NCBI GenBank assembly: GCA_965223005.1
Contig: CBDCVK010000010.1
Coordinates: 1,568,001-1,632,000 of the forward strand
Reading direction: 5' to 3'
Length of the DNA: 64,000 nucleotides
From: Terriglobia bacterium
GTDB taxonomy: Bacteria > Acidobacteriota > Terriglobia > JAJPHL01 > JAPKYU01
Below are positions 1,801-20,665 of this stretch, in pieces. Positions within the stretch are counted from its first letter, which is position 1. Every line of letters begins with the position of its first letter. The position numbers were made by a program, and so were the translations under genes. The notes under the pieces were generated by a model that was not told the DNA's origin, searched no databases, and saw only the letters and a list, made by a program, of their open reading frames with translations.

Positions 1801-1907
1801 TCTTTGAGTACAAGGACGCTTGCCTAAGATTCAGTGAGTAGGTCCCCATTAGCTTCCGACTGACAGTAGCCCACTTGGATGTATAACGCGCTAACCGGAC
1901 AAGTGCC
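1801..1907 (+). repeat. Multi-subsite repeat, copy 1 (subsite C, partial A, full B)
   Basis: 1801-1848 TCTTTGAGTACAAGGACGCTTGCCTAAGATTCAGTGAGTAGGTCCCCA closely matches the reverse complement of 12806-12852. Subsite B at 1873-1904 is ACTTGGATGTATA-ACGCGC-TAACCGGACAAGT. Confidence 0.85.
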
Positions 1908-1948
1908 TGGATTCCCTTTGGGGAAGTACGCCTGGCGCAAAAGGCTGG

Positions 1949-1977
1949 ATAGTCCCCAGTAACGGGCTAGTGCTTAC
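1949..1977 (+). repeat. Multi-subsite repeat, copy 2 (subsite A only)
   Basis: ATAG-TCCCCAG-TAACGG-GCTAGTGCTTAC; matches the A subsites at 4186-4215 (reverse) and 20591-20620. Confidence 0.8.
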
Positions 1978-2095
1978 CAAGGAAAACTGGGAATCGGCTA
2001 GTCTGTCTTCTGCGTAGTTGCATACGAAGTGTTGTCGGGGTTCAAACTGTCGGCCCGAAGCGCCACTTCGCGGGGGGAGCCAATTCGCTAGTTAT

Positions 2096-3859
2096 TTACC
2101 TGGGCACCTTAGATTTCAACATCCGGTACTTCTCGTACTGTCGCGAGTTGGCATACATAAACGGCAGCCCCTTCTTCACGCCGAGTTCTTCGCGAGTGTA
2201 AAACACCATGTTGTACACGTATGCGATCCTCGGGTCCTTCTTGCCTTCGAATGCCACCGTTATATTTATGCTGTATTGCAGCGGCTGCCCCCGAAAGTTC
2301 TTCTTGGACACAGCCCAGTCGCGGGCCGTGACGCACGCAGTCACTGGGATGTGCACGTCGTCATACTCGGGCTTGCTCCAGAGCTTCGCTTTTTTGAGAT
2401 AGTTCAAGGCTGCTGCAGCCAGGGCAGCAGGCCTACCCGGACCGGCAAAGGCAGCGTTGTGCCCGGGCCACGTTAACTTTTTGAGCGCTTCTACCCACTC
2501 CGGATAGGTTTCGTCGCGGGCCACCTGGGCTTGAGCGATGAAGTCATCGTAACCACCGTCCGGGTCGAATGCTTTAGCGATCTTGAAGCTGTTGAGAGCC
2601 CGTTCGGTATAATCGAATTTCAGTTCTACCTTGGTAGGATCAGGATTGGTCATTCGCTTCCAGCGCATGTAAGAATAGCGGCCTCGCTTGACGGCCCAGT
2701 CCACATAGGTCTTTTCCTGCTTCGTTACGTCAACGTTTGCGAGAGTGCCGTACGATATGACGAGGTCCAGGGAGACATCCAGTGGTTTCCGGACCCCTTT
2801 GAAGGATTCGAACACGTCGCTGTGGGTCTTCCCGTAGCGTTGCTCAAAAAGGTTCCAGAACGGAAGGAATGCATCTTTCCACTCGCGCCATTCCGCGATA
2901 ACGGTGGCACCTGCTTTGATGAAATAGCCCTCAGAACTCAAGCTATCCCTGAATTTGTCGGCCAGTCGCTCGAGGGTCACCCAATCTTTCGCGGCCTGGT
3001 TTTTGTCGATCACACGCGCCTTCCAGGCCTCCTCCTCAGCCTTCTTGGCAGCCCGTTCAGCCTCCTCGGCTTCCAACGCTGCTTTCCTCGCGGCCTCTTT
3101 CTTCGCTTCCACTTCAGCAACTGCCGCCGCAAACACATCCACTTTGGCCTGGATTTCTTTCTGTCGTGCCAGGGCGCCGGCAATGTCCGGATGATCTATG
3201 GGAATCTGATCGCCGTACATCTTCACGATTTCAGCCATGTATCGGTCGGCACTCCGCAACTCGTATTCCGCCTGTTCTGCACGCCACTTATCGGAAACAT
3301 TGCTTTCCTTGGTCAGCACTGTCTCTGCAGAGTCCAGTCTCTCGTGAAAATCTTTCAGGCGCTTCGTCACACCATGCGGCAATTTGGTAGCGGCAGGCAC
3401 GGCGCGGGATGCGGGCGCGGAAGGTGTCGACGAACTGGCCGCGCGAGCAGCTTGTCTCCTCAGGCGCCTGTCGACATCCCTGCGGTGCCTCGCGTATTTC
3501 TGTTCAAGAAGCTTCACTTTGCTGTTCGCGGGATCGGCTTCCTTAATCTTTCGAATGAGCTTGGCGACTTTATCAAGCAGGGCAGATGCCTCCTGATGCC
3601 TGCTGTTGAACATGTGGTTCTGTGAGATACGCAGATCGTTGTTGGCTTGCTTGATCAGCGCGTCGACATCAGCCGATTTCAAAGACGACCTTCCAACGAG
3701 CTTTTTCAATACGGAGTCCAGTTGTCCCTGAGCTTGTCTGAAGCCTCTATGACCCTGTGCCCAAGCATCCAGGGCTGCGAGGCAGAGGATTCCCGCAACG
3801 AGAACGAGGCAGAGCGACCCACGGGCCCACCCCCAATGAAGACCGGTTGGGCTCGGCAT
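2096..3859 (-). CDS. Secreted hypothetical protein with coiled-coil region
   Basis: Long ORF with a hydrophobic signal peptide ending 'AWA-Q' and an Ala/Glu/Lys-rich helical middle. No recognisable catalytic motif; start uncertain. Confidence 0.75.
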   Translation of the reverse strand: MPSPTGLHWGWARGSLCLVLVAGILCLAALDAWAQGHRGFRQAQGQLDSVLKKLVGRSSLKSADVDALIKQANNDLRISQNHMFNSRHQEASALLDKVAKLIRKIKEADPANSKVKLLEQKYARHRRDVDRRLRRQAARAASSSTPSAPASRAVPAATKLPHGVTKRLKDFHERLDSAETVLTKESNVSDKWRAEQAEYELRSADRYMAEIVKMYGDQIPIDHPDIAGALARQKEIQAKVDVFAAAVAEVEAKKEAARKAALEAEEAERAAKKAEEEAWKARVIDKNQAAKDWVTLERLADKFRDSLSSEGYFIKAGATVIAEWREWKDAFLPFWNLFEQRYGKTHSDVFESFKGVRKPLDVSLDLVISYGTLANVDVTKQEKTYVDWAVKRGRYSYMRWKRMTNPDPTKVELKFDYTERALNSFKIAKAFDPDGGYDDFIAQAQVARDETYPEWVEALKKLTWPGHNAAFAGPGRPAALAAAALNYLKKAKLWSKPEYDDVHIPVTACVTARDWAVSKKNFRGQPLQYSINITVAFEGKKDPRIAYVYNMVFYTREELGVKKGLPFMYANSRQYEKYRMLKSKVPR

Positions 3860-4137
3860 GATTAGCCTTCTCACTGATCGATTCCTCCAGGTGATGTTAG
3901 CTGTAAAGGCAAACCTCCCACAATTTACATACATGCATTATATGCCGCACCGTCAGAGTCAGCGAGCTACAGGTGGGCCTGTCTGGCTGCTCCCCTGGTC
4001 GTGCAGACCTTGTGAGTGTCTATCGCGTAGTCGAGTCGGTTCGGGCGGGTCCTCCAGGCCCTGTCTGGCCTCTGTCAGTCGGAAGCTAGTGAGGACCTAT
4101 CTACTCTCAGCTATTGAAGTGACACTGCCTCCAGGTA

Positions 4138-4220
4138 GGCACTTGTCCGGTAAACCGACTATACGTCCAAGTGAACCCGGGATTGATAAACGCTAGCCCG
4201 TTAGTGGGGATCTATCTGGC
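4138..4220 (-). repeat. Multi-subsite repeat, copy 3 (A+B, inverted)
   Basis: Reverse complement reads ATAGATCCCCAC-TAACGG-GCTAGCGTTTAT caatcccgggttc ACTTGGACGTATA-GTCGGT-TTACCGGACAAGT gcc. Confidence 0.9.
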
Positions 4221-4243
4221 ATTGCGGCTGACAAGGAGGTAGG

Positions 4244-4699
4244 TTACTTCTTCGGGTTCTTTGCTGCGTGTTTGGCTCGGATGGTCTTGGCGCGGGCTTC
4301 CATTTTGGCCGCCTCGGCATCCCGATTCGTCTTCCGTAGAAGTACTGCGTAATTCTCCAGGGTCGTTGCCACGTCAGGATGCTCCGGCCCTAGGGCTTTC
4401 TCCAAAATCGCCAGCACCCGTCGGAAGAACGGTTCGGCTTCGGCATACTTGCCCTGGGCACGGTAGAGTTCTGCTAGGTCGTTGAGGCTGTAGATCAGCC
4501 GCCCGTCCAGCTCCCCAAACTTTTCCGCTTCCTTGAGGGCAACCAGCAACAACTTCTCAGCCTCGGCGTACTGGCCGCTCCGGTAGGCTTTCCCACCGGC
4601 CTCGCTGTACTTCGCCCAGGCCGTGTCATCGGCCACGGCAAAGGACGCCAGACACAAGATTCCCAGTAGCAGCCAGCCAGTTTTGGCCTTCGTCATCAT
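4244..4699 (-). CDS. Secreted tetratricopeptide-repeat protein
   Basis: Signal peptide plus TPR_12-like repeats 'SLNDLAELYRAQGKYAEAEPFFRRVLAILEKALGPEHPDVATTLENYA'. Confidence 0.85.
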   Translation of the reverse strand: MMTKAKTGWLLLGILCLASFAVADDTAWAKYSEAGGKAYRSGQYAEAEKLLLVALKEAEKFGELDGRLIYSLNDLAELYRAQGKYAEAEPFFRRVLAILEKALGPEHPDVATTLENYAVLLRKTNRDAEAAKMEARAKTIRAKHAAKNPKK

Positions 4700-4742
4700 C
4701 GAGGACTCCTCCAGCAAACGGTAGGGCAGCCGATTCTCCCAC

Positions 4743-5276
4743 CTACCATGAGACTTCGAACGGCTTGCCTGCCTCCAATTCAATGACACCGCCTTTGCCC
4801 GAAGCTTCGCCTGTCGATAAGACTTTTCGGACTTCGGCGCCTCCAAGAGGATTTTCGGGGTCGGCCATCCGGCCCTCAACCATCTCGATCTTCAGGGGTC
4901 CACCTTCATTACGGATCGTGGCTCGCAATTTCAATCCCTCAATGTACGACGAGGCCAGGTATCTGTTATGGTCATCCTGGACCTTGAGGTCATGGCTCAT
5001 TGTCTGGGTAGCCGGAGGCCGATACCGTGATTTTGGAGTACGAGATGCCACTCGGACTCGAAACTCTGTTCCCACAGGGCCCGACCAGCGGAAACCCAAC
5101 ACCCACGGGTTGTTGGGGTCGTCCTGGCTGGCATTCCCGGGTTGTGCACCACTACCTTGTTGGGCCGAAGCTGCCGGATTCGCCTGCTGGCCCGAGGTGC
5201 TGGTCTCATCGCTTCCGCCGCACCCTACAAGAACCGAGACCAGCAGCAAAGGAAGCACCTTTGATAAGTTCCTCAT
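4743..5276 (-). CDS. Hypothetical lipoprotein
   Basis: Lipobox 'VLVGC' after a hydrophobic stretch, then a Ser/Gln-rich linker. Confidence 0.7.
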   Translation of the reverse strand: MRNLSKVLPLLLVSVLVGCGGSDETSTSGQQANPAASAQQGSGAQPGNASQDDPNNPWVLGFRWSGPVGTEFRVRVASRTPKSRYRPPATQTMSHDLKVQDDHNRYLASSYIEGLKLRATIRNEGGPLKIEMVEGRMADPENPLGGAEVRKVLSTGEASGKGGVIELEAGKPFEVSW

Positions 5277-5383
5277 GTTCCCCTCTTTCATTGACAAGGT
5301 TACCCGGCCTTCGACCCGGCCGGGGACTGACTGAGTCCGTCATCGTTTTTCGCCGACGACAGCCAAATCCCGCCCGACGGCCT

Positions 5384-5794
5384 TCACAAAGCCGCGCGGA
5401 TGCGTCCGCACAGGACCCTCAGGATGCCACGCGTCACCTCCATGTGGTTGGCCATCAACCTGAGGAAGGGCGCGCTAGAGAGCTTGAAAAGCTGGGTCGG
5501 CTCAAGCGCAGTGACCGAGGCTGCGCGTTGCTCGGGGTCCAGAGCGGCCAATTCGCCAAAGATCTCCCTGGGTCCCAGCTCGGCGATGTCGCGGCCGCCC
5601 GAGTGGACCCGAATCCGGCCGTCGATGATAATAAACATGGCCGTTCCCATGCCACCCTCGCGGAGGATCTCTTCGCCGGGCCCAAATTCCATCTCCTCCA
5701 GGATCGAGGCAACCTCGACCAAGGCATCCGCGGGAACTGCGGAGAAGAGGTCAACGGACTTCAGGATCAGCACCCTTTCCAGTGTAATCCGCAT
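5384..5794 (-). CDS. Stand-alone cyclic-nucleotide-binding domain protein
   Basis: 'ILREGGMGTAMFIIIDG..IFGELAALDPEQRAASVTA' phosphate-binding cassette. Its ATG overlaps the upstream TGA. Confidence 0.9.
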   Translation of the reverse strand: MRITLERVLILKSVDLFSAVPADALVEVASILEEMEFGPGEEILREGGMGTAMFIIIDGRIRVHSGGRDIAELGPREIFGELAALDPEQRAASVTALEPTQLFKLSSAPFLRLMANHMEVTRGILRVLCGRIRAAL

Positions 5795-8594
5795 CAGCTT
5801 CCTCCTTCGAGGTTGTCGGCCGCCCGTTCGGCATTGTCCGTTCGGGCATTGGGGTCCAGGACGGAAACCGCCCAGGCTGCGGTTTCGTGAACCAGGGGAT
5901 TTGGATCGTCGATCACATCGCGAACCGCGTCCAAGAGTCTCGTGTCTCGGGTCTTGCCAACCAGGTAGTTGCGCAGGCCCGTGTCCAGGGCAACAGCAGG
6001 GCGTTGGTCATGACCTCGCGCTGCAAGCGTTCCCTGCTGGGGGATTCTCGGGGCACCCACTCCTTCAACCGTGCGAGCTGCTCTCCCGCCGGGATGTCGT
6101 AAAAAAGGGGAAGGGTCATCGCCTTCATGTCCTGGCTCAGCAGGTTGTCCACCACCTCGAGGCCGGTGGCGCGCATGTCGGCGTGATCGCTGCACAATTT
6201 CTCCTTGGCGTCCAAGATCGCCTGAGAGGGAAACAGAAAGGACAGGAGGGAAAGTATGCGGTCGCGGCCTTGGCGGGCTTCCCATTCGAGCGCGCTGGCC
6301 AGGAGGTCCATTGCCCTTGCGGTACGCCACTGCTCAAGCGCCGTCAGAACCCACACAGTACTCTGCACTTCCTGCCGGATGTTGTCGCGTATCAACGCGA
6401 CAGTGTCACCACGGGCTTGGTAATTTCGCTCCGCCAGCTCGTCGAGCAGGGGATGCCGCACCCTTCGATTTGGGATGGACAGATAACCCAGCAACCGTTG
6501 TGTTGAGGCTTCGCTCCCGATCTCGCCCATCAGCCTGATCAGCAGAACGCGCTCCACGTCGGTGGTTCCCTCTCCATCGAACGCCGCCGCCAGCTCAGGA
6601 AGGGCGGGCTCGCCTAGGCTCACCAACGCCTTGAAGGCGAGTTCGCGCAAAGCGGGTTTTCTGAGACGTTCAATGATCGGCACGGCGAGTTTTGGGTTGC
6701 GGAGCTTGCCGGCGGCGACGATCACCGCTCGCTGCACACCGGTGTTTTCGTCGTCCAGGAGCGACAGGAGCGGATGATAGAAACCCGTGCTCCCGACGTC
6801 ACCGAGAACTTCGGCCGCGAATTGCCGCTCTCGCGGGTCCGACGACTTCAGCAGCTCGACCAGTTTCGATCCCGCCAGCAGCACGCCCTCCAGCCCACCG
6901 TTTCGCAACAGTCCGACCATGGCGCCTCGTTGCACGTGTTTATCGGCCGAATCCAGATGGGGCAAAGCCACGTCTAGCGCCTCGTCAGCATGCAACACAC
7001 AGAAAACTCTCACGGCGTCGCCCCGCACCTCACTGTCGCTTTCCGTCCCCATCAGGCCCAAGACGCGATCGGCAGCGGTGGTGATGTGGTTCGCCTCAAT
7101 CTGCGCGAGCGCGTGCTTGCGGACGTTGCTGTCGGGGTGAGCAAGCGCTTTGAGCAGGAATTCGTCCAGCGACGGGTGCTCGGCCTGTTCCAGCAACTTG
7201 AGACCGGTAATCACCTCAATGGGCATGTCGCTGTTCAGTCTTTCTTCGAGAATCTGCTGGCTCGAAGCGTCATCGAACGACAGGAGCCCTCCGGACAAAC
7301 GCCGCCGGCTGATGGCGCTGGTAAGCGCGATGACGTATTCGCGCCGAACCAGGAAAACACTCAGAACCGTCAAGCCGAGAAACGCCATGAGGACGTATGC
7401 CAGCCCGACGCTGGTGAGTTTCCATACCTCGGTCAGCAGCAAAATCAGGAACCCTGACAGCGCGATGGCGATCGGTTCGATGATCGATTCGCGTACCGCC
7501 TGCGCGCGCAGCCGGTCACCGGGACCAAGGGGCTGATAGAGAATGCGGAAGGTCGGCATTTCCAATGCCGACGTGGCGGCCTCGTGGACCAGCTTGGTGC
7601 CGATCAGGATCCACAGGAACGCGCCGGCCAGCGCAAGGGCGGCGAGTCCCAGTGCCGAGACGAGTCCCACCGTGGCTGCGGCCGGCGCCGCCACAAGGCC
7701 CGCAAGCACGCCAAACCGCGCCAGTAGACGGGCGGTGACCACGCCGCTCGCCACCAGGTTGACGAGGCTGAGGACGGCGAAAAAGATGCCGAAGAACCCG
7801 GCCAGCGCCGCCTCGTTCGTGTAAACCGACTCCACTTGATCGTAAAAAATGTAGTCCAGCAGGAAGAAGGAGACGCACGACAGCAGCGAGAGAATAAAGA
7901 AAGGACCCAGGAACCTGTCACGGCAAAGCTGCAGGAGAGATTTCCGGGTGACCACCTCTTCCTCCACGTCCTTCTGGGCGAAGTGATGCCCCTGCATCTT
8001 TTCCATGACCACCAGCATCACGAAACAGAGGCTGAGACCCACACCGGCGATCGGTATCAGGTGAACCGTTCCCGTCAGATCGACAATCCAGGGCATGCTG
8101 AAGCCACCCAGGATGTTCGCCAGAACATCTCCCGTGGCCACCAGCCCGAAGAGGCGCTTGCCCTGGCGCACGTTGAAGAGGAAGCCCGCGACCGCCCAGA
8201 ACTCGATATGGATGAGGACCCAATACACGCCCTTCCAGACCATCACCGCCATCCAAAGCCATTTGCCCGGCGCCAGCAGTATGAGGAAGTAGAAGCCGGC
8301 CATGACTGCGATCAGGAAGACGAGCACGCCCTTCATCAGCGAAAGCGGCTTGACCCTTTCCTCGCATTTCACATAAACCAGTCCCACCACCACCGAGACG
8401 GCAGCCGTGGCGATGTAGACGTAGGGAAGGAGGCTTACCCCGTATTCGGAAAGGAACTTAGTGTTTGCGGCAGTCTCGAGAAAGAGGACCGACGTACCCG
8501 TGAAGAAGGAAGTGATGAAGAGCAGAGCGAGGGCCTGGCCCTCACCCGACCTGACGTCGAAAGCCGACAAGATGCTGCCCCGCAGATTGATCAT
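5794..8594 (-). CDS. Npt1/Npt2 (TLC)-like MFS transporter with HEAT repeats, frameshifted near the 3' end
   Basis: About 12 TM segments with 'FNVRQGKRLFGLV', then HEAT repeats. The last HEAT repeat ('YLVGKTRD..DPNPLVHETAAWAV') lies in another frame after ~5968. Confidence 0.85.
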
Positions 8595-8802
8595 CGACCT
8601 GGTCCCAGGTTTTAACCGGAATTTCCGATTTCAACTTTACCTTTGCGCACAATCATACGCCAGTCGCCCTTTGCGGAAAGCTTACATCGCCATGGCCGTG
8701 ATGGGGGGGAACCGGCCCGTCTTGGCAGTTCGGATGACCTCCTTAGTGTGTTCCGGACCTCCCGCCTGCCGCGCTGCTAATACTCTCTGAGAGTGCAGTA
8801 AT

Positions 8803-8955
8803 TCTCTGAAACGGCAAGAGTTGGCTCAGACTTGGCAGATAGGTCCCCACAAGTCGGTTAGCGTTTACCTATGCTGCCACGCCGCCCACTTTGCCGTATA
8901 ACGCGCTAACCGGACAAGTGCCTTGGATTCCCTTCGGGAAAGCGCAAAGGATGGA
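8803..8955 (+). repeat. Multi-subsite repeat, copy 4 (complete C+A+B plus downstream hairpin)
   Basis: C = TCTCTGA-N11-TTGGCTCAGA; A (8839-8868) = ATAGGTCCCCAC-AAGTCG-GTTAGCGTTTAC; B (8888-8919) = ACTTTGCCGTATA-ACGCGC-TAACCGGACAAGT. The tail GGATTCCCTTCGGGAA..GCGCAAAGG is shared with copy 1. Confidence 0.9.
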
Positions 8956-9082
8956 AGGGACAGATCTTTGAAATCCTTCCAAATGTGAAATTATTGCCAC
9001 CTGGAGAGGCCAGGACTAAAGCGGCAAGGTCCCGTAAGGATTCTGGCTGTAGGGATTTGAACTCCTTTTGCCTGTTGGCACC

Positions 9083-9541: not shown

Positions 9542-9557
9542 GGCATGATGACCTTTG

Positions 9558-12852: not shown

Positions 12853-13019
12853 GTTGCAGCCCAATCAAGCTAACAGCTCGAACACGGCTGCGGCTGAGAG
12901 TGAAAACCCCACCGAAACCGAACTCTTTTTTCGATTCGTTGCGCTGAAGCAGGAGGTGGAGAGGCCTCGCTACTTTGATTTCCATATGAGCCGCGCTGGT
13001 TCTGCTTTCGCCAAGTAGT

Positions 13020-14270
13020 TTACAGCGCCGCACGAAGTGCCGGCGACTCGCGCAGGTCAAAGTGGGGATTGATCTCGACTGCGCGCTGCAGGTATTCCTT
13101 ACCGCTCTCAGTTTCTCCGGCTTTCTGGAAAATCTTACCTGCGTGGTAGTAGAGGCGGGCGTCCTGGGTGCCTAACCGCAGTGCCTGGCCTATGGCCGCC
13201 GTGGCTTCCTCGATGAGCCCGGCCTTGTAGGCAGCCCAGGCCAGGGTGTCGAAGGCGGCGATGTCGCGGGCGGTGCGCAGGTCCTGGCGCATCCAGTCAA
13301 GCGCCAGGGCGAGGTTTCGGTCGTGGTCCGCGTAGAAAGTAGCCAACTCATGCCGTGCCATGTCACCCTGGTCCAGCAATAACCGCTCGGCGCGGCGGTA
13401 CTCGCGTTCGGCCGCTCGCGCCTGGCCGCGCCGACTGTAGATATCTCCAAGTAGAATGTGCGCGTTGGGGGCGGCCCAGCGGGTCGCACGCCGGACCAGG
13501 CGGATCGCCTCCTGGTCGCGGCCGCGGGCGGCGCTCACCCGCGCGCGCCCCACCAAAGCTAGTTGAGAATCGGACCAGGCGCCGAGCGCCTGGTCGTAGG
13601 CGTGTTGTGCCGCGTCCAAGTCGCCGCCGCGGAAGTACAGGTCTCCCAGTTGAGTTAGGCACCAGGACAGGTTCTCCGGGTCGCGCGGGCTGGCGGCGCG
13701 AACAGCCAGCTTCATGATCTCGATGGCGCCGGGGCGGTCTCCTAGCAGTTCGCGCAGGTGGGCTGCGCGGCTGTAGGAGGCGACGTCGGGACGTAATTCG
13801 ACCATGCGCTGGAAGGCCTCAGCGGCGACATCGTAGTCACCCAGTTCGAGGTAGGCATCGCCCAAGGTGCCATAGTTCCAGGCGTCGTTCGGTTGCATCG
13901 CCTGCGCTTTGCTGGCCCAGGCCAGCGACTCTTGGAAGCGGTGCTGCCCGGCCAGGACCCAGGCCATCATTTTGGTGGCTGCATAATGATTGGGCTCCAC
14001 CGCCAGGGCCCGTTCGGCGGCCTGCTGCGCCTTGCTGTACCACTGCTGGCCGCCGGCGGCGCGCGCCTTCCGCATGTAGGCGCCGGCGAGATCGGAAAGC
14101 AGATCGGTGTCATTGCCTACCTTCGCCAATCTTCGCTTCAAGATGGAGATGCGCTGCTCAATGTCGGGCGGAACAGAGGGCTGGCTGTCGCCGGCGGGGC
14201 GCGTCATCAAGAGGGCGCCCGAAAACAAGCCGAGCAGAAAAACCACGATGTAGAAACGTCTTCCAAACAT
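13020..14270 (-). CDS. Exported TPR protein (DUF4331-associated)
   Basis: N-terminal TM/signal segment and many TPRs; last gene of the operon after DUF4331. Confidence 0.85.
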   Translation of the reverse strand: MFGRRFYIVVFLLGLFSGALLMTRPAGDSQPSVPPDIEQRISILKRRLAKVGNDTDLLSDLAGAYMRKARAAGGQQWYSKAQQAAERALAVEPNHYAATKMMAWVLAGQHRFQESLAWASKAQAMQPNDAWNYGTLGDAYLELGDYDVAAEAFQRMVELRPDVASYSRAAHLRELLGDRPGAIEIMKLAVRAASPRDPENLSWCLTQLGDLYFRGGDLDAAQHAYDQALGAWSDSQLALVGRARVSAARGRDQEAIRLVRRATRWAAPNAHILLGDIYSRRGQARAAEREYRRAERLLLDQGDMARHELATFYADHDRNLALALDWMRQDLRTARDIAAFDTLAWAAYKAGLIEEATAAIGQALRLGTQDARLYYHAGKIFQKAGETESGKEYLQRAVEINPHFDLRESPALRAAL

Positions 14271-14272
14271 GG

Positions 14273-15793
14273 TTACAGAGAAGGGTTGGCATGGACCCGG
14301 TCGCGTCCCGAATGCGGGGACGCCTGGTAAGGAAACGTTTCCAGGTACGGCCTGTCATTGGCATTAATCCCGTCGCCCACTGCTGGCGGTGAGAAGCCCT
14401 CGACCAGCACTCCCATCACCGCGCGGAGCACAATGTCGACGACGTCATCGCTGACGCGCCGGCCGTTCGGGTAGCCAGCGCCGTCGGCGGCAAGCCCTCC
14501 CAAGCGCCTGCGGGCGGAGGCGTCGGTAGGCGAAACGGCCACGTTCAGCCTCAGCAGGTCGGCGATGGGCCCCGGCGTGTCACCTGGATACTGAAGCAGC
14601 AAGCTGGCCAGGTCGTTGCGTGGGGGCGGGGGAGCGGGGACGCCGAACACCGCGTCCACCAAGCGGGCCAGCAGCGGGTCCAGGCCGAAGCTGGCATAGC
14701 TGGAATCGTTCTTCGGCTCGTCCTGGCTCCACATGTCCTTGAAGCCTGTGCCAATGACCAGCTCGTTGATCAACGGATTCCCCATGCGCTGCACCTGCTT
14801 GAAGCTGCCGAAGGAAATGGGCTTGCCGAGCGTCGGCCGGACGGTCACCAACGGGCGGGCCGTGGTGCCCCAGGTGCCGATGACCGCCGTAGGATCGCTC
14901 GCCGATGTCGGCGTCATTCCCGAGCTGGTCAGCATGCTGATCGGCGCTTCGATGGCGATCGACTGCACGTTAAACCCGGCGAGCATGTCGATGCCAAAAG
15001 CGTTCGTCGTGTCGTCATCGTCCTGGCCTGCACTCAGCACCGGCGTGGCGCGGAAGTTCAGAGAATCGAATGTCGCGCCGAGGTCAATGTAAAAGCCGTC
15101 GTCGCGCTGCCCGGCGAAAACGCGAACGCCGTCTCCCAGGTCATACATTCCCTGGGCGGCGAGCTGGTCGTAGTCGGGCATGGTGAGCGGGCCCACATTG
15201 GAAGGCACGGCAAAGAGGGCGCCGCCGGCGGCGGGGGTCAGCAAAGTGCGCGTAGCAGTAATGCCAGAGCCGCGCACCAGGGTCACCGAATAACTCTGCC
15301 GCAGGTTCAAACCCTCAGAACCGGGGCCGTCCAACGCGGTGATGGCGGGCGGCACCAGCGGATCACCCGGCGAGAAGGGTGGGGCTGTGCCGGCCGGGGC
15401 AGGAATGCCGTCGCCGGCGCCCACCAGACCCACGACCACATCGGGCGCGCGCACCTCGGTCGTGAACTGAACCTCGAAGGTCACATCCTCGATCGCGTCC
15501 CGGTTGTTGTCCACCTTAAACGAGTACAGCACATCTTCGCCAAAGGTGAAGTAGTTGGGACCCAGGCTGGGATCCTCCAGAGGGACCACGTTCATGATCA
15601 TGGTGACCTTGGTGGGATCGTCATAGCTGACGAAGGCAAACCAGTCCGTAATATCCGCCACCGGGTCCTGAGAGATCAGCGGGGCTTCACGGTGACTGGC
15701 GGCCTGCGCGTCCCGCCTGCTGGTCGGAACCAACGGCCCGAGCACCAGCGTCACCACCAGGATGGCCACGACACATGACAGAAACGTTCGCAT
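14273..15793 (-). CDS. DUF4331 domain secreted protein
   Basis: Signature motifs 'ASHREAPLISQDP.ADITD', 'VFAGQRDDGFYIDLG', 'RMGNPLINE' and 'GYPNGRR..DDVVD'. GGAG RBS before ATG 15793. Confidence 0.9.
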   Translation of the reverse strand: MRTFLSCVVAILVVTLVLGPLVPTSRRDAQAASHREAPLISQDPVADITDWFAFVSYDDPTKVTMIMNVVPLEDPSLGPNYFTFGEDVLYSFKVDNNRDAIEDVTFEVQFTTEVRAPDVVVGLVGAGDGIPAPAGTAPPFSPGDPLVPPAITALDGPGSEGLNLRQSYSVTLVRGSGITATRTLLTPAAGGALFAVPSNVGPLTMPDYDQLAAQGMYDLGDGVRVFAGQRDDGFYIDLGATFDSLNFRATPVLSAGQDDDDTTNAFGIDMLAGFNVQSIAIEAPISMLTSSGMTPTSASDPTAVIGTWGTTARPLVTVRPTLGKPISFGSFKQVQRMGNPLINELVIGTGFKDMWSQDEPKNDSSYASFGLDPLLARLVDAVFGVPAPPPPRNDLASLLLQYPGDTPGPIADLLRLNVAVSPTDASARRRLGGLAADGAGYPNGRRVSDDVVDIVLRAVMGVLVEGFSPPAVGDGINANDRPYLETFPYQASPHSGRDRVHANPSL

Positions 15794-15842
15794 GTTCAAT
15801 TCTCCTTTTCCTTCTCCACTGGTTTCACTGACCAGCGTGGTT

Positions 15843-17051
15843 TCACTGAATGGTGACTTGCACCGTGTTGCTGACTTGGCCCTCGGAGCTGACCACCAGA
15901 TCCACGGTTCCCCGGCCGGCAAATTCCTCCGGCAGAAGGACGTTGATCTGGTCCAACCCGACAAAGACAGGATGGCTGCCACCGAATTCCACCGGGACTG
16001 GGACTCCGTCCAAGGTGACCTGGAGCGACTCGGCCACGTTCACCAGGGTTCTGCCTTCGGCAAGCGGAATGTCGTTGGTCGGGTCCGTGTTCGGGAGATT
16101 GCGGATGCCGGTGAGGAAGATGGCCAGCCGTGTACGCTTGTCCTCACCCGGGTTTTCCGGAGTGGTGACTGCGAAGGGCCCTCGCTCAAACGTGACCCCG
16201 TTCAAAATGGATCCCAGGCCACTTCCGGAAGCATCCTCGGTGAAGATGGCCGGCGACGCCGCCTGTACCTCAACCGTCCCGGTGGCGACGGCGCCGTTGT
16301 TTCCCGTCACCACGACCTCAGCAGTCCCCGCGGCGATTTCTAACGGCATGAGGAAGTTCACCTGGTTGGCGGAGGCGAAAAAGAGTTGCGCCAGCTGACC
16401 GCCGACCAGGACGGTGACCCCAGCCAGCGCGAGCGGAAGCTGCCCCTCCTCGTCAAACATGCCGGTCGCCGAGGAGCCACTGACGGCGAGGCTGGTGAAG
16501 ATGGTGGCTACGCTGTCTTGGGCGATCGGCCCGCGGTAATCCGGGGCGCGCACCGCGGTGGCCCCACCTGCGGCCGCACCTTGCAAAGCAGCGAGTTGCG
16601 GCGCGGTGAGATTCTCCAGGCCTCCCCGGAGGGCGTCGATCGCCGCGGCCGTCACGTTTCCTGCCGACCCCAGTCTCACCAAGAAGGCTTCTTGCAGTTC
16701 CCCTGTACCGTTCCGCGCCAGCGATTGCGCTGCCGCCGCCAATAGGGCCTGGAGGCCTGCCAGCGCCGGTGCGACCGTGTCGCCACCGGCCTGCTGGATC
16801 TCCTCCTCGAAGGCCAGTCGGCTGGCGGCCACGATGAACTGCAGGTCGTCAATTTCGACGGCGGCATCTGCCATGGTGAGCTTTCCGGTGACCAGATCCA
16901 CCAAAATGGTCTCAATGCGGTCTGCCACATACTGAAACAGAGCGTCGGGGCCCGCCGTGGCTGGCTGCGCTTGGGCGCGGGCCGTACCAGACAAGCTCAG
17001 CACCAGTATCAGCACTGGCACCAGCGCTGCAGCCGCGATTCGCTTGTTCAT
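15843..17051 (-). CDS. Secreted protein with TIGR03437-type C-terminal domain
   Basis: 'LPLALAGVTVLVGGQLAQLFFASANQVNF..PAIFT..FVGLDQINV..SNTVQVTIQ' is typical of the Solibacter C-terminal domain family; signal peptide present. Confidence 0.8.
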   Translation of the reverse strand: MNKRIAAAALVPVLILVLSLSGTARAQAQPATAGPDALFQYVADRIETILVDLVTGKLTMADAAVEIDDLQFIVAASRLAFEEEIQQAGGDTVAPALAGLQALLAAAAQSLARNGTGELQEAFLVRLGSAGNVTAAAIDALRGGLENLTAPQLAALQGAAAGGATAVRAPDYRGPIAQDSVATIFTSLAVSGSSATGMFDEEGQLPLALAGVTVLVGGQLAQLFFASANQVNFLMPLEIAAGTAEVVVTGNNGAVATGTVEVQAASPAIFTEDASGSGLGSILNGVTFERGPFAVTTPENPGEDKRTRLAIFLTGIRNLPNTDPTNDIPLAEGRTLVNVAESLQVTLDGVPVPVEFGGSHPVFVGLDQINVLLPEEFAGRGTVDLVVSSEGQVSNTVQVTIQ

Positions 17052-17082
17052 CGTCGTCTTTTCTCCTACCGGGTCTTGTCTC

Positions 17083-17505
17083 CTACCAATTGCGCAGAAG
17101 CTCCTCCCGCAACCGCTTTGCTTCCTCCGGGGTGAGCTGCCCTAGCTTGCTGATGAAATCCACGGCACTCTGAACCTGCCCTGCTACGGGGATCATGGGC
17201 TTGGGCTGATACACCACTTTCGGGCCAGCGCGGTCGCGGCGGTGCAGGATGATTACCTTGCCCCCGCCCAACACGTAGTAGTCCACCGGCCAGCCCTCGA
17301 CCATCCGCCGCACGGCCCGCACCGGCTCCTCGTCTTGCAGTCGCACGGTCAGCTTGAGATCGGAAAAGTCGCCTTGCATCTCCAGGCGGCTGCCCAGCCG
17401 CCCGGCCAGCGCCTTCATGGCTTCCGGGAGCGGCACCGCCGTGGCGACCAGAGACACCTTTCCACCCACCAGCGCCAGCGCCAAGCCCATGGCGGCAATC
17501 CACAT
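17083..17505 (-). CDS. Small exported hypothetical protein
   Basis: Hydrophobic N-terminus; first gene after an ECF-type promoter; co-oriented with the operon. Confidence 0.65.
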   Translation of the reverse strand: MWIAAMGLALALVGGKVSLVATAVPLPEAMKALAGRLGSRLEMQGDFSDLKLTVRLQDEEPVRAVRRMVEGWPVDYYVLGGGKVIILHRRDRAGPKVVYQPKPMIPVAGQVQSAVDFISKLGQLTPEEAKRLREELLRNW

Positions 17506-17524
17506 CTCTTGCCTCGGGGATATA

Positions 17525-17551
17525 TACGGGGAAGACAGCAGAATCGGATTG
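17525..17551 (-). promoter_or_regulatory. ECF (SigK-like) promoter CAATCC-N16-CCGTA
   Basis: Matches the motif upstream of the sigma gene and resembles the CCATCC/CCGAA SigK consensus. Confidence 0.65.
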
Positions 17552-17580
17552 CGGATTTCGGCAGGAAGTGGGCTGTCGTT

Positions 17581-18387
17581 TTATTGGAGGGGCACTGTGA
17601 GGAGGATTTGTCCGGTTGGGGCCGGCACGCCGCCCGGGGGCTCGTCACTGACGGCAATGGCCCGGAGGGAAGCGACCTCGATCGGTTGCTTCCACAGGTG
17701 GAAGGCGTTGCCTTCCGCATCCGGCTCGAAGACGCCGGCGGGAATTGGGGCGGGACGCCCGGCAGCGATCAGCCACAGCTCGTAGACGCGGCCGGGCGGC
17801 GGCGGCGGAAAGTCGGTAGCGAGCAGGACTAACCCGCCAGGCTGCAGGAAGATGCGCCCGGAAGGCTGCTGCGGGCCGAAACGGACCTCGCGTGCCTCGG
17901 GCGCCGTCATCAGACGCATGGCCTCGCGAAAGGCACCCAGACGCTGCAACAACTCTCGCTCGCGCTCCTGCAGAATTCGAGCGCTGGTTTCCGAGGATTG
18001 CAAATCGGCTTCCAGCGAACGGCCTTGCCGAAACAGACCAGCGGCGACGATCAGCAACGCAATGGCCGCAATGGCGCCGGCCGCAAACGCCCACCTCCAG
18101 AACGCCAACTTGCCAGGGGACACCCTCTCCAACTGCGGTCCAGCCTGGCGCAAGCTCGCAGCGGCTTTCAGGATGTCTGCGCGCAACCGAGCTGGCGGCT
18201 CGGCCGGCGGCACGGCTAGGGCCAGATGGGCAGCCAGCTCCCGTGCCTGAGCAACACCTGCTGCGCAGGTGGTACAGCCCTTGGCCAGATGTGCCTCAAT
18301 CTCGGCCCCGACAGTGGCGCGCTCTTCCGGCTCCAGCGTCCCGAAGACGTAGAGTTCGTAGCCGTGCTGGAGTTCTTCGCAGGTCAT
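17581..18387 (-). CDS. Anti-sigma factor, RskA-like with zf-HC2
   Basis: 'HLAKGCTTC' ZAS motif, a TM helix, and C-terminal 'VYELWLI..AIAVSDEPPGGVPAPTG'. Overlaps the sigma stop codon. Confidence 0.9.
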   Translation of the reverse strand: MTCEELQHGYELYVFGTLEPEERATVGAEIEAHLAKGCTTCAAGVAQARELAAHLALAVPPAEPPARLRADILKAAASLRQAGPQLERVSPGKLAFWRWAFAAGAIAAIALLIVAAGLFRQGRSLEADLQSSETSARILQERERELLQRLGAFREAMRLMTAPEAREVRFGPQQPSGRIFLQPGGLVLLATDFPPPPPGRVYELWLIAAGRPAPIPAGVFEPDAEGNAFHLWKQPIEVASLRAIAVSDEPPGGVPAPTGQILLTVPLQ

Positions 18388-18938
18388 GGCTTGAGCGTCT
18401 CGCGCAGCGCCTTCAGACCGCTGCGAGTCCAGGTCTTCACCGTTCCCAGCGGCTGGTTCAGCCGCGTTGCAATCTCGCTCTGTGTGAAGCCCTCGTAGTA
18501 GGCCATCTCGATCACTCTGCGCTGCGGCTCGGGCAGCGTGGCCAGCACCCGGCCCACTCGTTCGGCCGTCTCCAGGCTGCAGTGCGTGTGCGGGGAAGCT
18601 GGTGGCGCTTGGTCTTTCAAGGGCACGGATGCCGCGGCATCACGCTGCTGACGAGACCGTAACCGGTCAATGGCCCGATTCCGGGTGAAGGTGAGCAGCC
18701 AGCCGAGCAACTCGCCGCGCGATGGGTCGAAGGAGCCCGCCCGACGCCAGAGCTGGAGGAACACGTCCTGGGTGACTTCCTCGGCAACGCTGGGGTCTCC
18801 GACCACGCGCAAGGCCAGGGCAAACACCAGGCGCCCGTAGCGGTCATAGAGGCGACCCAGGGCCTGCTGATCGCCGCGCGCGGCGGCCGCTACGTCGGCC
18901 TGGTCGGTCTCTCCTTTACGGGCAACCGCCAGCGCCAT
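18384..18938 (-). CDS. ECF RNA polymerase sigma factor (SigK-like)
   Basis: Region 2 'AEEVTQDVFLQLW' and region 4 'EGFTQSEIATRLNQPLGTVKT'. Start placed at 18938 because the ATG at 18968 lies inside the promoter. Confidence 0.92.
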   Translation of the reverse strand: MALAVARKGETDQADVAAAARGDQQALGRLYDRYGRLVFALALRVVGDPSVAEEVTQDVFLQLWRRAGSFDPSRGELLGWLLTFTRNRAIDRLRSRQQRDAAASVPLKDQAPPASPHTHCSLETAERVGRVLATLPEPQRRVIEMAYYEGFTQSEIATRLNQPLGTVKTWTRSGLKALRETLKP

Positions 18939-18947
18939 AACTAAGAA

Positions 18948-18974
18948 TACGGCGGGAGCGGCAGCCATGGATGG
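18948..18974 (-). promoter_or_regulatory. Autoregulatory ECF promoter CCATCC-N16-CCGTA
   Basis: Read directly on the minus strand; the -10 element lies 9 nt before ATG 18938. Confidence 0.7.
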
Positions 18975-19152
18975 GCAAGGGTATCATGTCTCGGTGGGCT
19001 CGCGATGAAGCCCGGTTACCCTGATCACGCCATAACGCCTCGCTGCGATCGGAAAGTGGCGGAGCAGCGAAAATTTGCCAGCCGGAGCGCTAGCCGCCGG
19101 TGGAGGGCATCAGTCCCCCAAGCTGCCGTGCTGCTAGACTGTCCACAGGACA

Positions 19153-20397
19153 ATGAAAGTCATCGTAATCGGCCTCGGCAGCGCCGGTGACGTTCACCCC
19201 AACGTGGGCCTTGCTCTGGCTCTACGCCGGCGTGGCCACCAGGTCCTCCTTGTCGCTGCCTCGATCTTCCATTCATTGGCGCAGCGCGCCGGTCTGGAGT
19301 TCGCCGGACTCGGCACCGACGACGAGTACTATGAGGCCATTCGCGATCCGGACATGTGGCATCCTCTCCGGTCCTTTTTTGTGTTGGCTCGACGCTTGAT
19401 CCTGCCTTCGGTGCCCCGGATCTACGACCTCATTGCCAGGCTTAATGAGCCCGGCCAAACCGTCGTTGCCGCCCCGGGCACAGCGCTCGGCGCCCGCATT
19501 GCACAAGAGAAGCTCGGCGTGCCGCTGGCAACCGTGCACCTGCAACCGATCATGCTGCGCAGCACACTCGAGCCTGGTTGCTTTGGCTTTCCGGACATCA
19601 TCGGTCACTTGCCGCGCCCGCTGAGGAGTGCTTACCTACGAGTGGTGGACCGGTTTCTCATTGACCGTCTCCTGGCGCCGGATACAAACGCGTTTCGCGC
19701 CGAACTCGGGCTGCCGCCAGTTCGCCGACTGTTCGATCGCTGGTTTCACTCGCCCCAGCTCATCATCGGACTTTTCCCGGAATGGTTCGCGCCGCCCCCT
19801 CCCGACTGGCCCCCCAATGTTCGTCTCACTGGCTTTCCACTCTGGGACGAAGGAGACCTGCGGCAACGTACTCCCGAGGCGGAAGAGTTCCTCGATGCCG
19901 ACGATGCACCAGTCGTCTTCACCGCGGGCTCGGCTATGGTCCAGGGCAGAGAGTTCTTCCGGATTTCGGCGGAAGTCTGCCGCGCCAGCGGGCGGCGAGG
20001 TTTGTTTCTGACCCAGTATCCTGAGCAACTCCCCGTACGACTCCCCAACGGAGTTCGTCACTTCAACTACATACCGTTCAGTACGGTATTGCCGCGAGCG
20101 GCCGCCTTTGTGCATCACGGCGGCATTGGGACAACCGCGCAAGCACTCGCCGCGGGCGTCCCGCAGATCGTCGTTCCCTCAGCTCACGACCAGCCGGACA
20201 ACGCTGTGCGCATCCGGCATCTTGGGGTCGGAGATTTTCTTCTACCGAGGGATTACAAGCCGGCTGCAGTTCTCAAATATTTGGACCGCCTACTCAGGTC
20301 GCCGGCAGTGAAGGAGAACTGCATACGGCGAGTCGGCGACGTCGCCGACAGCAGATCCCTTGAACAGGCCTGCGATTTGATGGAGCAGCTTCGATAG
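19153..20397 (+). CDS. GT1 family glycosyltransferase (RhlB-like)
   Basis: 'GSAGDVHP' N-terminal motif and 'FVHHGGIGTTAQALAAGVPQ..HDQPDNA' UDP-sugar box. Confidence 0.9.
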   Translation: MKVIVIGLGSAGDVHPNVGLALALRRRGHQVLLVAASIFHSLAQRAGLEFAGLGTDDEYYEAIRDPDMWHPLRSFFVLARRLILPSVPRIYDLIARLNEPGQTVVAAPGTALGARIAQEKLGVPLATVHLQPIMLRSTLEPGCFGFPDIIGHLPRPLRSAYLRVVDRFLIDRLLAPDTNAFRAELGLPPVRRLFDRWFHSPQLIIGLFPEWFAPPPPDWPPNVRLTGFPLWDEGDLRQRTPEAEEFLDADDAPVVFTAGSAMVQGREFFRISAEVCRASGRRGLFLTQYPEQLPVRLPNGVRHFNYIPFSTVLPRAAAFVHHGGIGTTAQALAAGVPQIVVPSAHDQPDNAVRIRHLGVGDFLLPRDYKPAAVLKYLDRLLRSPAVKENCIRRVGDVADSRSLEQACDLMEQLR

Positions 20398-20590
20398 CCG
20401 ACAAGTCGGTACGACACCCACTTCCCTATGAATCCACCGGAATTTATCCCAGGCTGAACTCCATCCTCTCGACTAAGGTGGAAGCACTCTTTCCTAAATC
20501 CACCATCGTCCTGGCCAGTTCGGTGGGCGATCCGGGGCTGCGAGCCGTTCAGGTAGAACTTGAGTAACTGCGAAACACCGCCTTCTCTGG

Positions 20591-20665
20591 ATAGGTCGTC
20601 ACTAACGGGCTAGTGCTTATCAATCCCGGTTTCAGTTGGGCGAATAGTCGGCAAACCGGTTGATA
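20591..20665 (+). repeat. Multi-subsite repeat, copy 6 (A+B, diverged)
   Basis: ATAGGTCGTCAC-TAACGG-GCTAGTGCTTAT caatcccggtttc AGTTGGGCGAATA-GTCGGC-AAACCGGTTGATA; colinear with copy 3. Confidence 0.85.

What the first reader, a model, noticed from the sequence alone, without database searches (positions are those of the whole stretch)
1801..20665. Array of multi-subsite recombination-like sites delimiting unrelated gene modules (candidate new cassette system)
Seen in sequence: six intergenic copies of a composite repeat at 1801-1907(+), 1949-1977(+), 4138-4220(-), 8803-8955(+), 12787-12852(-) and 20591-20665(+). It has up to three subsites. C = TCTYTGA-N11/12-TTGSCTMAGA. A = ATAGGTCCCCAC-N6-KYTAGYGYTTAY. 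B = ACTTKGMYGTATA-N6-TWACCGGACAAGT, a 13-6-13 dyad. Arms and spacing are conserved while the 6-bp centres and linkers vary, which points to protein-binding sites rather than a decayed gene. From copy 2 onward the orientation alternates (+,-,+,-,+), and the copies sit at boundaries between unrelated cargo blocks. Established knowledge: dyad arms around a 6-8 bp overlap are the core-site architecture of tyrosine recombinases (dif/pdif, lox), alternating sites flank pdif modules, and three-subsite layouts occur in resolvase res sites. Inference: a non-integron, pdif-like gene-module capture and shuffling system served by a recombinase in trans. None is encoded in this window.
Basis: partly seen in the sequence, partly recalled or inferred. 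Interest (0 to 1): 0.88.

Follow-up and report, generated by a model that had tools for sequence, protein, structure and literature searches.

The report
Ends of IS1-like cargo transposons
The repeated "sites" are the long, modular ends of transposase-less mobile elements related to the IS1 insertion sequence, which carry assorted passenger genes in acidobacterial genomes; this is a known kind of element, not a new recombination system.

Summary
The six composite repeats are real and non-random. They are not a local array: the same A/B/C modules occur at 66 loci in this 3.24 Mb genome, almost all intergenic, and in all three congeners searched. Module B is a terminal inverted repeat. In its commonest outward-facing form the element starts GGTAGTGGGTCAGTTTCCG and ends with the reverse complement. 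Of 26 inverted pairs of such ends in three genomes, 14 are flanked by an 8-bp direct repeat matching at 7 or 8 positions, against 0.46% in mismatched controls. These are target-site duplications. The bounded segments run from 310 bp to 10.9 kb and carry unrelated passenger genes but no shared transposase. Autonomous relatives carry the same terminal GGTAGTGG, 8-bp duplications and an IS1-type DDE transposase. The repeats are therefore ends of non-autonomous IS1-like elements of the MITE / mobile-insertion-cassette type. The pdif-like site-specific recombination model is not supported. Two caveats apply. The window's own B copies belong to a variant end type for which I found no duplications. 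Cargo also differs between relatives at the same insertion site, which simple transposition does not explain.

The parts
1801..1829 (+). module C (short hairpin-like TCTYTGAG...CTMAGA), subterminal
   Evidence: same module precedes A in the right end of the 310-bp element L068
1836..1871 (+). variant A module (A-X)
   Evidence: I4, 88% complementary to 4067-4099; also present in L068
1870..1908 (+). module B, variant outer arm CCGGACAAGTG (R1 type); outer side faces right
   Evidence: aligned to ends of duplication-flanked elements
1909..1943 (+). conserved tail after B with a small TTCCC-TTTG-GGGAA hairpin
   Evidence: D1, D3; same tail after several R1-type B copies
1944..1980 (+). A module (third subtype)
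4067..4136 (-). A-X variant (4067-4099) plus conserved tail module (4100-4136) outside B
4136..4176 (-). module B (R1 type), outer side faces left
4178..4243 (-). A module plus conserved lead CCTCCTTGTCA..GCAATG that abuts the stop codon of the TPR gene 4244-4879(-)
8614..8790 (+). further multi-copy intergenic module left of C
   Evidence: many matches to 8614-8784 in G001-G003; raised depth, loose ends at 8612-8670
8806..8923 (+). C (8806-8835), A (8832-8877), B (8885-8923): complete right-end composite
12780..12852 (-). A (12780-12819) and C (12825-12852), no B
20587..20659 (+). A (20587-20629) and truncated B (left arm, centre, AAACCGG, then unrelated)
4136..8923 (.). candidate cargo element (B-,A- ... 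C,A,B+) carrying TPR gene 4244-4879, ORF 5384-5794 and an 893-aa HEAT/MFS-like gene 5913-8594
   Evidence: architecture matches duplication-flanked elements; cargo; no target duplication found, so this is inferred
12780..20659 (.). possible second, inverted element (ends incomplete) carrying TPR, DUF4331, TIG, anti-sigma/ECF sigma and glycosyltransferase genes
   Evidence: orientation of end fragments; cargo. Weak: in G001 the A-B end lies on the other side of the glycosyltransferase gene

Best explanation
The composite repeats are the terminal (B) and subterminal (A, C and further) modules of a family of non-autonomous transposable elements derived from IS1-like insertion sequences. An element has roughly 100-200 bp modular inverted ends, B outermost with A next to it, and between them either nothing (MITE form, 310 bp) or passenger genes (mobile-insertion-cassette form, up to about 11 kb). 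An IS1-type DDE transposase supplied in trans would bind the ends, cut at the GG...CC termini and insert with an 8-bp target duplication. Shown: the termini, the duplications, the lack of a transposase in the cargo, and autonomous relatives with the same terminus. Inferred: that the window's own copies, which have a variant outer arm, are ends or end remnants of such elements; that A and C are transposase- or host-factor-binding modules; and that mobilisation in trans occurs. The six window sites alternate in orientation because left and right ends alternate along the chromosome.
For: 1) Genome-wide family. There are 82 profile hits in 66 loci. 80 of 82 lie outside predicted genes, although the predicted genes cover 80-90% of each contig. 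There is no orientation bias to neighbouring genes: 24/22/19/17 of 82. Architectures are A-B, B+B-, A+A- and A-B-A.
2) Sharp terminus. After ...CGGAAACTGACCCACTACC the flanks are unrelated between copies.
3) Target duplications. In 26 inverted pairs of such termini (20 in G001/G003; 6 in G000 in corrected register), the flanking 8-mers match at 8/8 in 7 pairs, 7/8 in 7, 6/8 in 2 and 5 or fewer in 10. In 650 mismatched pairings, 7/8 or better occurred in 0.46%.
4) Cargo. Passenger genes are unrelated: alpha/beta hydrolase, cNMP-binding, Ser/Thr kinase-TPR, GNAT, aldo-keto reductase, cytochrome P460 and SBBP/DUF7948. The only recurrent genes are nested ISs.
5) Autonomous relatives. L157:1995-4982 has the same 16-nt terminus, an 8/8 duplication CAGAGTTA and a 305-aa protein hitting Pfam DDE_Tnp_IS1 at 35.9 bits (cut-off 24.1). 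L191 (G001) has the TIR GGTAGTGGGCTACTTTG and duplication GCCCGCCT 8/8. L192 (G003) has the TIR GGTAGTGGTCTG and duplication CAATATCC 8/8. Their transposases score 30.5 and 38.6 bits on DDE_Tnp_IS1. L064 (G001) has B-type ends around a homologous transposase gene that another IS has split.
6) Link to the window. The window ends align with ends of duplication-flanked elements through the inner arm of B and all of A. The 310-bp element L068 contains C, A-X, A and B in the window's order.
7) Literature. The related IS1595 family and Merlin elements have GG termini and 8-bp or 8-9-bp duplications (PMC8101967, passages read). MITEs and MICs lack a transposase and are activated by a cognate one (PMC3129680, passages read).
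Against: All three intact B copies in the window have the variant outer arm CCGGACAAGTG, not the canonical terminus. Conserved sequence continues beyond them. No 8-bp duplication was found for the pair 4139/8920, and that test had a 7.8% false-positive rate, so it says little for this end type. No canonical terminus lies in the window. Ten of 26 canonical pairs show no duplication. Two of the 14 positives (L065, L075) carry the conserved 8-nt spacer CTGGCGGG of tail-to-tail doublets, so they may not be independent events. None of 16 simple insertions or deletions between G000 and G001/G003 in the fetched loci involves an A or B module, so recent mobility is not seen. G000's only homologue of the transposase (39% identity) sits in an element with a different TIR, GGTAGTGTCCTAATTTGG, and no duplication. 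At two orthologous insertion sites the ends and flanks are conserved but the cargo differs between genomes, and simple cut-and-paste transposition does not explain this. NCBIfam's IS1 model is hit only below its cut-off.
Confidence: 0.72

Rival explanations
1. The ends double as recombination sites. Cargo between two fixed ends is exchanged, either by homologous recombination or gene conversion between the ~100-bp conserved ends of different copies, or by a site-specific enzyme. The family would then work as a cassette-exchange system on top of, or instead of, transposition.
For: At C10:899896-901951 versus G001 (L030), flanks, duplication and ends are shared, but 1.87 kb of cargo is replaced by an unrelated 1.28 kb. 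At C10:598983-600843 three genomes have 1.8, 3.1 and 1.4 kb of different content between the same flanks. Window 1868-4216 is 92% identical to G003, against 85-90% in core regions, and the homology ends exactly at the inner edges of B and A. B occurs with mixed arm combinations: left/right arm types 22, 4, 4 and 0. Repeat-bearing intergenic regions hold synteny-block ends more often than others in the same loci: 19 of 36 versus 33 of 103, odds ratio 2.4, p=0.044.
Against: Breakpoints fall at different places: the left-arm/centre border, the centre/right-arm border, inside the tail, and at the AGGTC of A. This fits homologous exchange or decay rather than one crossover site. The enrichment at block ends is weak. 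Gene-level mosaicism is common in these regions without any repeat. No recombinase is consistently linked.
Confidence: 0.15
2. pdif-like or other tyrosine/serine recombinase core sites: B is a 13-6-13 core, A and C are accessory sites, and modules move by site-specific recombination.
For: There are 12 Phage_integrase matches in the genome. By comparing coordinates, about four lie within roughly 2 kb of a repeat locus: C10:108233, 114492, 1106381 and 1549955. B has two partly symmetric arms around 6 bp.
Against: Ends carry 8-bp target duplications and GG...CC termini. The terminus is shared with IS1-type transposase elements. There is no fixed crossover point. Most of the 66 loci have no integrase nearby. 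Integrases and repeats both concentrate in variable regions, which can explain the adjacency.
Confidence: 0.04
3. REP/BIME- or REPIN-like palindromic extragenic repeats, moved by a RAYT-type HUH enzyme or serving as structural or RNA-stability elements.
For: They are strictly intergenic and mosaic, and occur as inverted doublets with short conserved spacers. The terminus contains GTAG/CTAC, a REP hallmark as I recall it. A B+B- doublet folds far better than shuffles (z -7.19), and one B subtype has z -3.80. Mini-palindromes made of two abutted termini exist (L141; C6:27908).
Against: The genome has no Y1_Tnp/RAYT match; it is 96% complete and the control genomes ring. Ten of 11 single modules do not fold better than shuffles (z -1.38 to +0.86). 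Target duplications of 8 bp are not expected from HUH transposition (established knowledge of IS200/IS605).
Confidence: 0.06
4. Cis-regulatory sites or a structured non-coding RNA shared by many operons.
For: Certain positions are nearly invariant. One tail type has a small UUCG-type hairpin. A-B follows the stop codon of several TPR genes.
Against: There is no orientation bias to neighbouring genes. Rfam gives no match other than three tRNAs in the window. Neighbouring genes are unrelated apart from two paralogous families.
Confidence: 0.03

Closest known systems
IS1 family insertion sequences (and the related IS1595 family / eukaryotic Merlin)
   Same: Termini start with GG (GGTAGTG fits the GGnnnTG end I recall for IS1). 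Target duplications are 8 bp. The autonomous relatives encode a DDE transposase hitting Pfam DDE_Tnp_IS1 above cut-off. The 8-bp duplications and GG ends of IS1595/Merlin are from PMC8101967.
   Different: Classical IS1 is about 0.77 kb with about 23-bp inverted repeats and a frameshifted two-ORF transposase (recalled). Here the ends are ~100-200 bp modular composites. The autonomous relatives are 2-3 kb with extra ORFs, and most copies have no transposase. NCBIfam's IS1 model is matched only below its cut-off. No match to the IS1595 DDE model was reported at E up to 0.01.
Mobile insertion cassettes (MICs, e.g. MIC231 of Bacillus cereus) and transporter ISs
   Same: IS-type inverted ends bracket passenger genes unrelated to transposition, no transposase is present, and mobilisation is presumed to be in trans (definition from PMC3129680; the MIC231 example is recalled).
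   Different: The scale differs: dozens of ends per genome. Cargo reaches about 11 kb and has many different contents. Elements form tail-to-tail arrays with a conserved 8-nt spacer, and cargo differs at the same occupied site between species.
MITEs
   Same: The 310-bp element L068 and the 0.57-0.9 kb members have TIRs plus 8-bp duplications and no coding capacity for a transposase.
   Different: Most members carry genes, and the ends are mosaics of several modules in variable combinations.
REP/BIME mosaic elements of enterobacteria
   Same: Intergenic, modular, alternating orientation, GTAG/CTAC motif.
   Different: Target duplications are present, no RAYT is found, and most single modules are not significant hairpins.
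pdif modules of Acinetobacter plasmids
   Same: Gene modules lie between inverted short sites of alternating orientation.
   Different: pdif sites are Xer sites without target duplications (established knowledge). Here the ends are transposon termini on a chromosome, and there is no fixed crossover point.

Membership tests
Non-autonomous derivative (MITE/MIC) of an IS1-like insertion sequence | Terminal inverted repeats with a defined terminus | tested here: met
   GGTAGTGGGTCAGTTTCCG ... CGGAAACTGACCCACTACC, with unrelated flanks beyond it. The window's own B copies carry a variant outer arm.
Non-autonomous derivative (MITE/MIC) of an IS1-like insertion sequence | Target-site duplication of fixed length (8 bp) | tested here: met
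   14 of 26 end pairs match at 7/8 or 8/8, against 0.46% in 650 mismatched controls. Not met for the window pair 4139/8920.
Non-autonomous derivative (MITE/MIC) of an IS1-like insertion sequence | No element-encoded transposase; passenger genes unrelated to transposition | tested here: met
   Pfam run on 20 main cargo ORFs. The only transposases are nested, multi-copy ISs with their own ends. 57 cargo ORFs share no other family.
Non-autonomous derivative (MITE/MIC) of an IS1-like insertion sequence | Cognate autonomous element with the same ends | tested here: met
   L157 has the same 16-nt terminus plus an IS1-type DDE. L064 in congener G001 has B-type ends around a disrupted homologue. L191 and L192 share the first 8-9 nt. 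None is intact in G000.
Non-autonomous derivative (MITE/MIC) of an IS1-like insertion sequence | Mobilisation in trans by that transposase | not testable with these tools
   Needs a transposition assay. No recent insertion polymorphism was seen in 16 indels.
IS1 family (for the autonomous relatives) | IS1-type DDE transposase domain | tested here: met
   PF03400 at 35.9, 30.5, 38.6 and 36.5 bits versus a cut-off of 24.1. NF033558 at E=1.7e-15, but 57.5 bits is below its 100-bit cut-off.
pdif / Xer-type or other site-specific recombination modules | Exchange at a fixed crossover within the central region, without target duplication | tested here: not met
   Breakpoints are at several different positions, and 8-bp duplications are present.
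pdif / Xer-type or other site-specific recombination modules | Similarity of the core to the host dif site; binding by XerC/D | not tested
   The host dif site was not identified. Binding cannot be tested here.
REP/BIME/REPIN | RAYT (Y1 HUH transposase) gene in the genome | tested here: not met
   0 matches to PF01797 in G000 (96.28% complete). The control search rings in 6 of 14 named genomes. Congeners were not searched.
REP/BIME/REPIN | Each unit is a stable imperfect palindrome | tested here: inconclusive
   1 of 11 single modules folds better than all 200 shuffles. The other 10 have z between -1.38 and +0.86. Two compensatory changes between A subtypes were seen by eye only.

The most novel reading that the evidence does not exclude
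The conserved ~100-bp modular ends act as fixed 'docking' sites, and whole gene cargos are swapped between them, by the transposase itself or by a dedicated recombinase. This would give Acidobacteriota a chromosomal cassette-exchange system that reuses occupied insertion sites. The tail-to-tail doublets with conserved 8-nt spacers would be its active junctions.
Probability: 0.1. Interest if true: 0.75.

Novelty: new member of a known kind. Interest (0 to 1): 0.36.

Why it matters
It replaces a proposed new recombination system with a concrete, testable identity: a large, apparently undescribed family of transposase-less, gene-carrying IS1-like elements. No paper in the held library was found that links them to Acidobacteriota: the 12 papers listed (of 1,593 that matched) hold neither the MITE nor the MIC term, and the terminus sequence occurs in one unrelated paper. 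The exact 18-nt terminus occurs in more than 110 stretches of species-representative genomes. Of the 80 rows shown, 71 bear names of lineages that I take to be acidobacterial. About 17 matches are expected by chance, by my arithmetic for a 596-Gb collection. These elements mark the variable regions of these soil genomes. They explain many intergenic repeats that break assemblies. They also offer a route by which single accessory genes spread, and the cargo differences at shared sites deserve a proper population-level look.

Tried and rejected
- Rfam on the whole window: only three tRNAs.
- Hairpin/REP idea: alifold on unfitted alignments gave no consensus structure, and single-module folds were mostly no better than shuffles.
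- RAYT search: none found.
- Cargo gene 2096-3934 as a hidden transposase: it is single copy, has no Pfam match, and looks like a secreted coiled-coil protein.
- Comparing B with the ends of 13 multi-copy repeats in G000: no resemblance by eye.
- Looking for a recurrent transposase next to 82 termini in other genomes: no family occurs in more than 4 of 82. The IS1-like gene surfaced only through a 2-member cluster.
- Exact 8-bp repeats at symmetric offsets for variant (R1) ends: 5 of 14 pairs were positive, but all lay in conserved tail sequence, and the control rate was 7.8% (31 of 396). The test is uninformative, and nothing was found for the window pair.
- Public runs: no RNA holder is listed.
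- Laying contigs of four runs on window 1-20000: short metagenome contigs break at the repeats, and the joints come from other copies. No usable excision or inversion evidence came from this.
- A 53-bp stretch inverted between the window (20657-20709) and G001 turned out to be part of a duplicated piece of another gene.
- Supplements of papers were not consulted.
- The IS1 end motif GGnnnTG, IS1's size and frameshift, the MIC231 example, and the name I would give the conserved C-terminal domain of neighbouring large proteins are all recalled, not from any call.

Full report
**Observation.** The second half of C hits three places, again with 0 of 100 shuffles reaching that. Some amendments apply. 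Copy 1 carries a variant A, and an inverted copy of that variant lies at 4067-4099. The last B is truncated. The B 'centres' come in a few alternative forms rather than varying freely.

**Not a local array.** The window is G000:C10:1568001-1632000 in a 3.24 Mb, 10-contig genome.
- An iterated nhmmer profile grew from 38 to 82 hits at E<=1e-3.
- Separate profiles gave 59 A, 58 B and 2 C hits, grouped into 66 loci. Architectures are A-B, A-B-B', B+B-, A+A- and A-B-A.
- 80 of 82 hits lie outside genes predicted by my crude codon-usage caller, which covers 80-90% of each contig.
- Orientation relative to neighbouring genes is unbiased: 24/22/19/17.
- Hits are clustered: 29 of 70 50-kb bins are occupied, and the top bins hold 12, 8 and 8.
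- Rfam finds nothing but tRNAs.
- Neighbouring genes are unrelated apart from two paralogous families, whose 3' ends were evidently duplicated together with the repeat.

**Relatives.** Six of 31 genomes searched match, G000 included. These are all three congeners (28, 28 and 9 matches; the first two equal the number of candidates scored, so may be capped) and two more distant genomes with two weak matches each. G001 is 92-97% identical to G000 over core DNA, and G003 is 85-90%.

**What the ends are.** I compared orthologous loci.
- At G000 C10:899896-901951 and its G001 counterpart, flanks and repeat ends are shared but the DNA between them is unrelated. Both sides are bordered by the same 8 bases directly outside ...GGTAGTGGGTCAG / CTGACCCACTACC....
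- Listing all matches to the outer arm of B showed a sharp boundary after CCCACTACC, with unrelated flanks beyond it.
- I then collected every inverted pair of such termini within about 11 kb: 20 in G001/G003 and 6 in G000 (which corrects a one-base register slip).
- The 8-mers flanking each pair match at 8/8 in 7 pairs, 7/8 in 7, 6/8 in 2 and 5 or fewer in 10.
- In 650 deliberately mismatched pairings, 7/8 or better occurred in 0.46%.
- Two of the positives carry the conserved spacer of tail-to-tail doublets and may not be independent.

These are target-site duplications. The bounded segments are transposable elements of 310 bp to 10.9 kb.

**Cargo and enzyme.** Pfam on 20 main cargo ORFs gave unrelated passenger functions, plus three kinds of nested IS.
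- The IS256-type gene in L063 is a 1.44-kb IS with its own ends, present about ten times in G000 at 99.5% identity.
- The 57 cargo ORFs share no other family.
- The exact 18-nt terminus occurs in more than 110 stretches of species-representative genomes; the scan stopped at its limit. Of the 80 rows shown, 71 bear names of lineages that I take to be acidobacterial.
- The ORFs next to 82 such termini show no recurrent transposase.
- A small cluster led to L157:1995-4982. It has the same terminus at both ends, an 8/8 duplication CAGAGTTA, and a 305-aa protein matching Pfam DDE_Tnp_IS1 above cut-off. NCBIfam's IS1 model is matched only below its cut-off.
- Homologues exist in all three congeners.
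- L191 in G001 and L192 in G003 are 2-kb elements. Their TIRs start GGTAGTGG, their duplications are perfect 8-bp repeats (GCCCGCCT, CAATATCC), and their IS1-type DDE scores are 30.5 and 38.6 bits.
- L064 in G001 has B-type ends around a homologue that another IS has split.
- G000 has one 39%-identical homologue, in an element with a different TIR (GGTAGTGTCC...), no duplication, and a P63C-domain passenger gene.
- Passages in PMC8101967 state that the IS1595 family, named in the title of its cited reference 15 as related to IS1, usually has 8-bp duplications, and that Merlin TIRs start with GG. PMC3129680 defines MITEs, MICs and transporter ISs.

**Back to the window.** Aligned with ends of duplication-flanked elements, the window's ends match through the inner arm of B and the whole of A. 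They differ in the outermost ~17 nt.
- All three intact window B copies have the variant arm CCGGACAAGTG. Beyond it conserved tail modules continue, so these B copies are not demonstrable termini.
- The pair 4136-4176(-) / 8885-8923(+) has the canonical layout (B,A ... C,A,B) around three genes, but no duplication was found. The test is weak for this end type.
- The end fragments at 12780-12852 and 20587-20659 may bracket a second, inverted element. In G001, however, the A-B end lies on the other side of the glycosyltransferase gene.
- I therefore hold the family-level conclusion with more confidence than the exact element boundaries in the window.

**What remains odd.**
- Cargo differs at occupied sites shared by two or three genomes, with breakpoints at varying positions within B and A.
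- Window 1868-4216 is 92% identical to a G003 segment in a different context, and the homology ends at the inner edges of the repeats.
- Repeat-bearing intergenic regions are modestly enriched for synteny-block ends: 19/36 versus 33/103, p=0.044.
- None of 16 simple indels involves a module.

This pattern suggests old insertions whose contents are later exchanged, most simply by homologous recombination between the conserved ends. A site-specific mechanism is not excluded but has no positive support.

**Verdict.** This is a new, widespread member of a known kind: IS-derived MITE/MIC elements. It is of moderate interest.

Noticed in passing
G000 C2:271899-271950, C2:139696-139750, C2:224267-224320, C9:92817-92870, C10:109385-109428; also C2:222370-231547: Tail-to-tail B+B- doublets always have exactly 8 nt between the two termini. 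That spacer is itself conserved: CTGGCGGG or its near variants for one end type, CGTCACTG for another. It resembles abutted-end (circle or tandem) junctions, or repeated insertion into the spacer. Unexplained.
   Followed up: partly
L080:3330-3390, L123:5013-5070, L149:7149-7200, L126, L092 (public MAG records): In several other genomes the B-like terminus is interrupted about 27 nt in, at the B centre, by a shared sequence (...CTCAACCGGTCGATGCAACAC). This sequence leads into an HTH_38+rve (IS30-type) transposase gene. It suggests an IS30-like element that targets these ends.
   Followed up: partly
window 4228-4243 and G000 C10:249968-249988, C3:129750-129771, C10:94651-94661, C2:519230-519250: A-B follows the stop codon of multi-copy TPR_12-type genes within about 15 nt. 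The intervening conserved lead contains CCTCCTT, which is complementary to a Shine-Dalgarno sequence.
   Followed up: no
G000: C2:60603-62051 and nine further copies; G001 L063:713-2150: A 1.44-kb IS256-family IS (Transposase_mut) is about 99.5% identical between G000 and G001, far above the 92-97% identity of core DNA. This suggests recent spread within the genus.
   Followed up: partly
G000 C10:107471-109261 (L015:7471-9261, minus strand): A 596-aa tyrosine recombinase with a C-terminal DUF3489 domain starts 152 nt downstream of a C-A-B composite. A C-terminal integrase fragment lies 110 nt after another A-B at C10:114492-114680. The two flank a 1504-aa DUF7948/SBBP/BACON gene.
   Followed up: partly
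L141:2246-2282, G000 C6:27890-27925, L090, L091, L108, L135, L147, L150: Mini-palindromes consist of two abutted termini (37 nt), and ~100-nt hairpin MITEs carry the same termini. They occur in distant Acidobacteriota and in G000.
   Followed up: no
window 8614-8790: A separate multi-copy intergenic module lies upstream of C, with dozens of matches in the congeners and strongly raised contig depth in metagenome runs.
   Followed up: no
G000 C9:87640-89630: A 1989-bp insertion relative to G001 ends 66 nt from an A-B locus. Its content was not examined.
   Followed up: no
window 24496-24567, 24636-24707, 47505-47591 (minus strand): Three tRNA genes. Synteny with G001 resumes just beyond the first two (window about 24386 onward), so the repeat-rich variable region abuts a tRNA pair.
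   Followed up: no
G000 C9:95216-99064, C10:109720-114234, C8:235927-237516 and about 50 other places: Large secreted beta-propeller/Kelch proteins share a ~120-aa C-terminal domain (...GLAPGFVGLYQVN...). In a few of them the C module starts 18 nt after the stop codon.
   Followed up: partly
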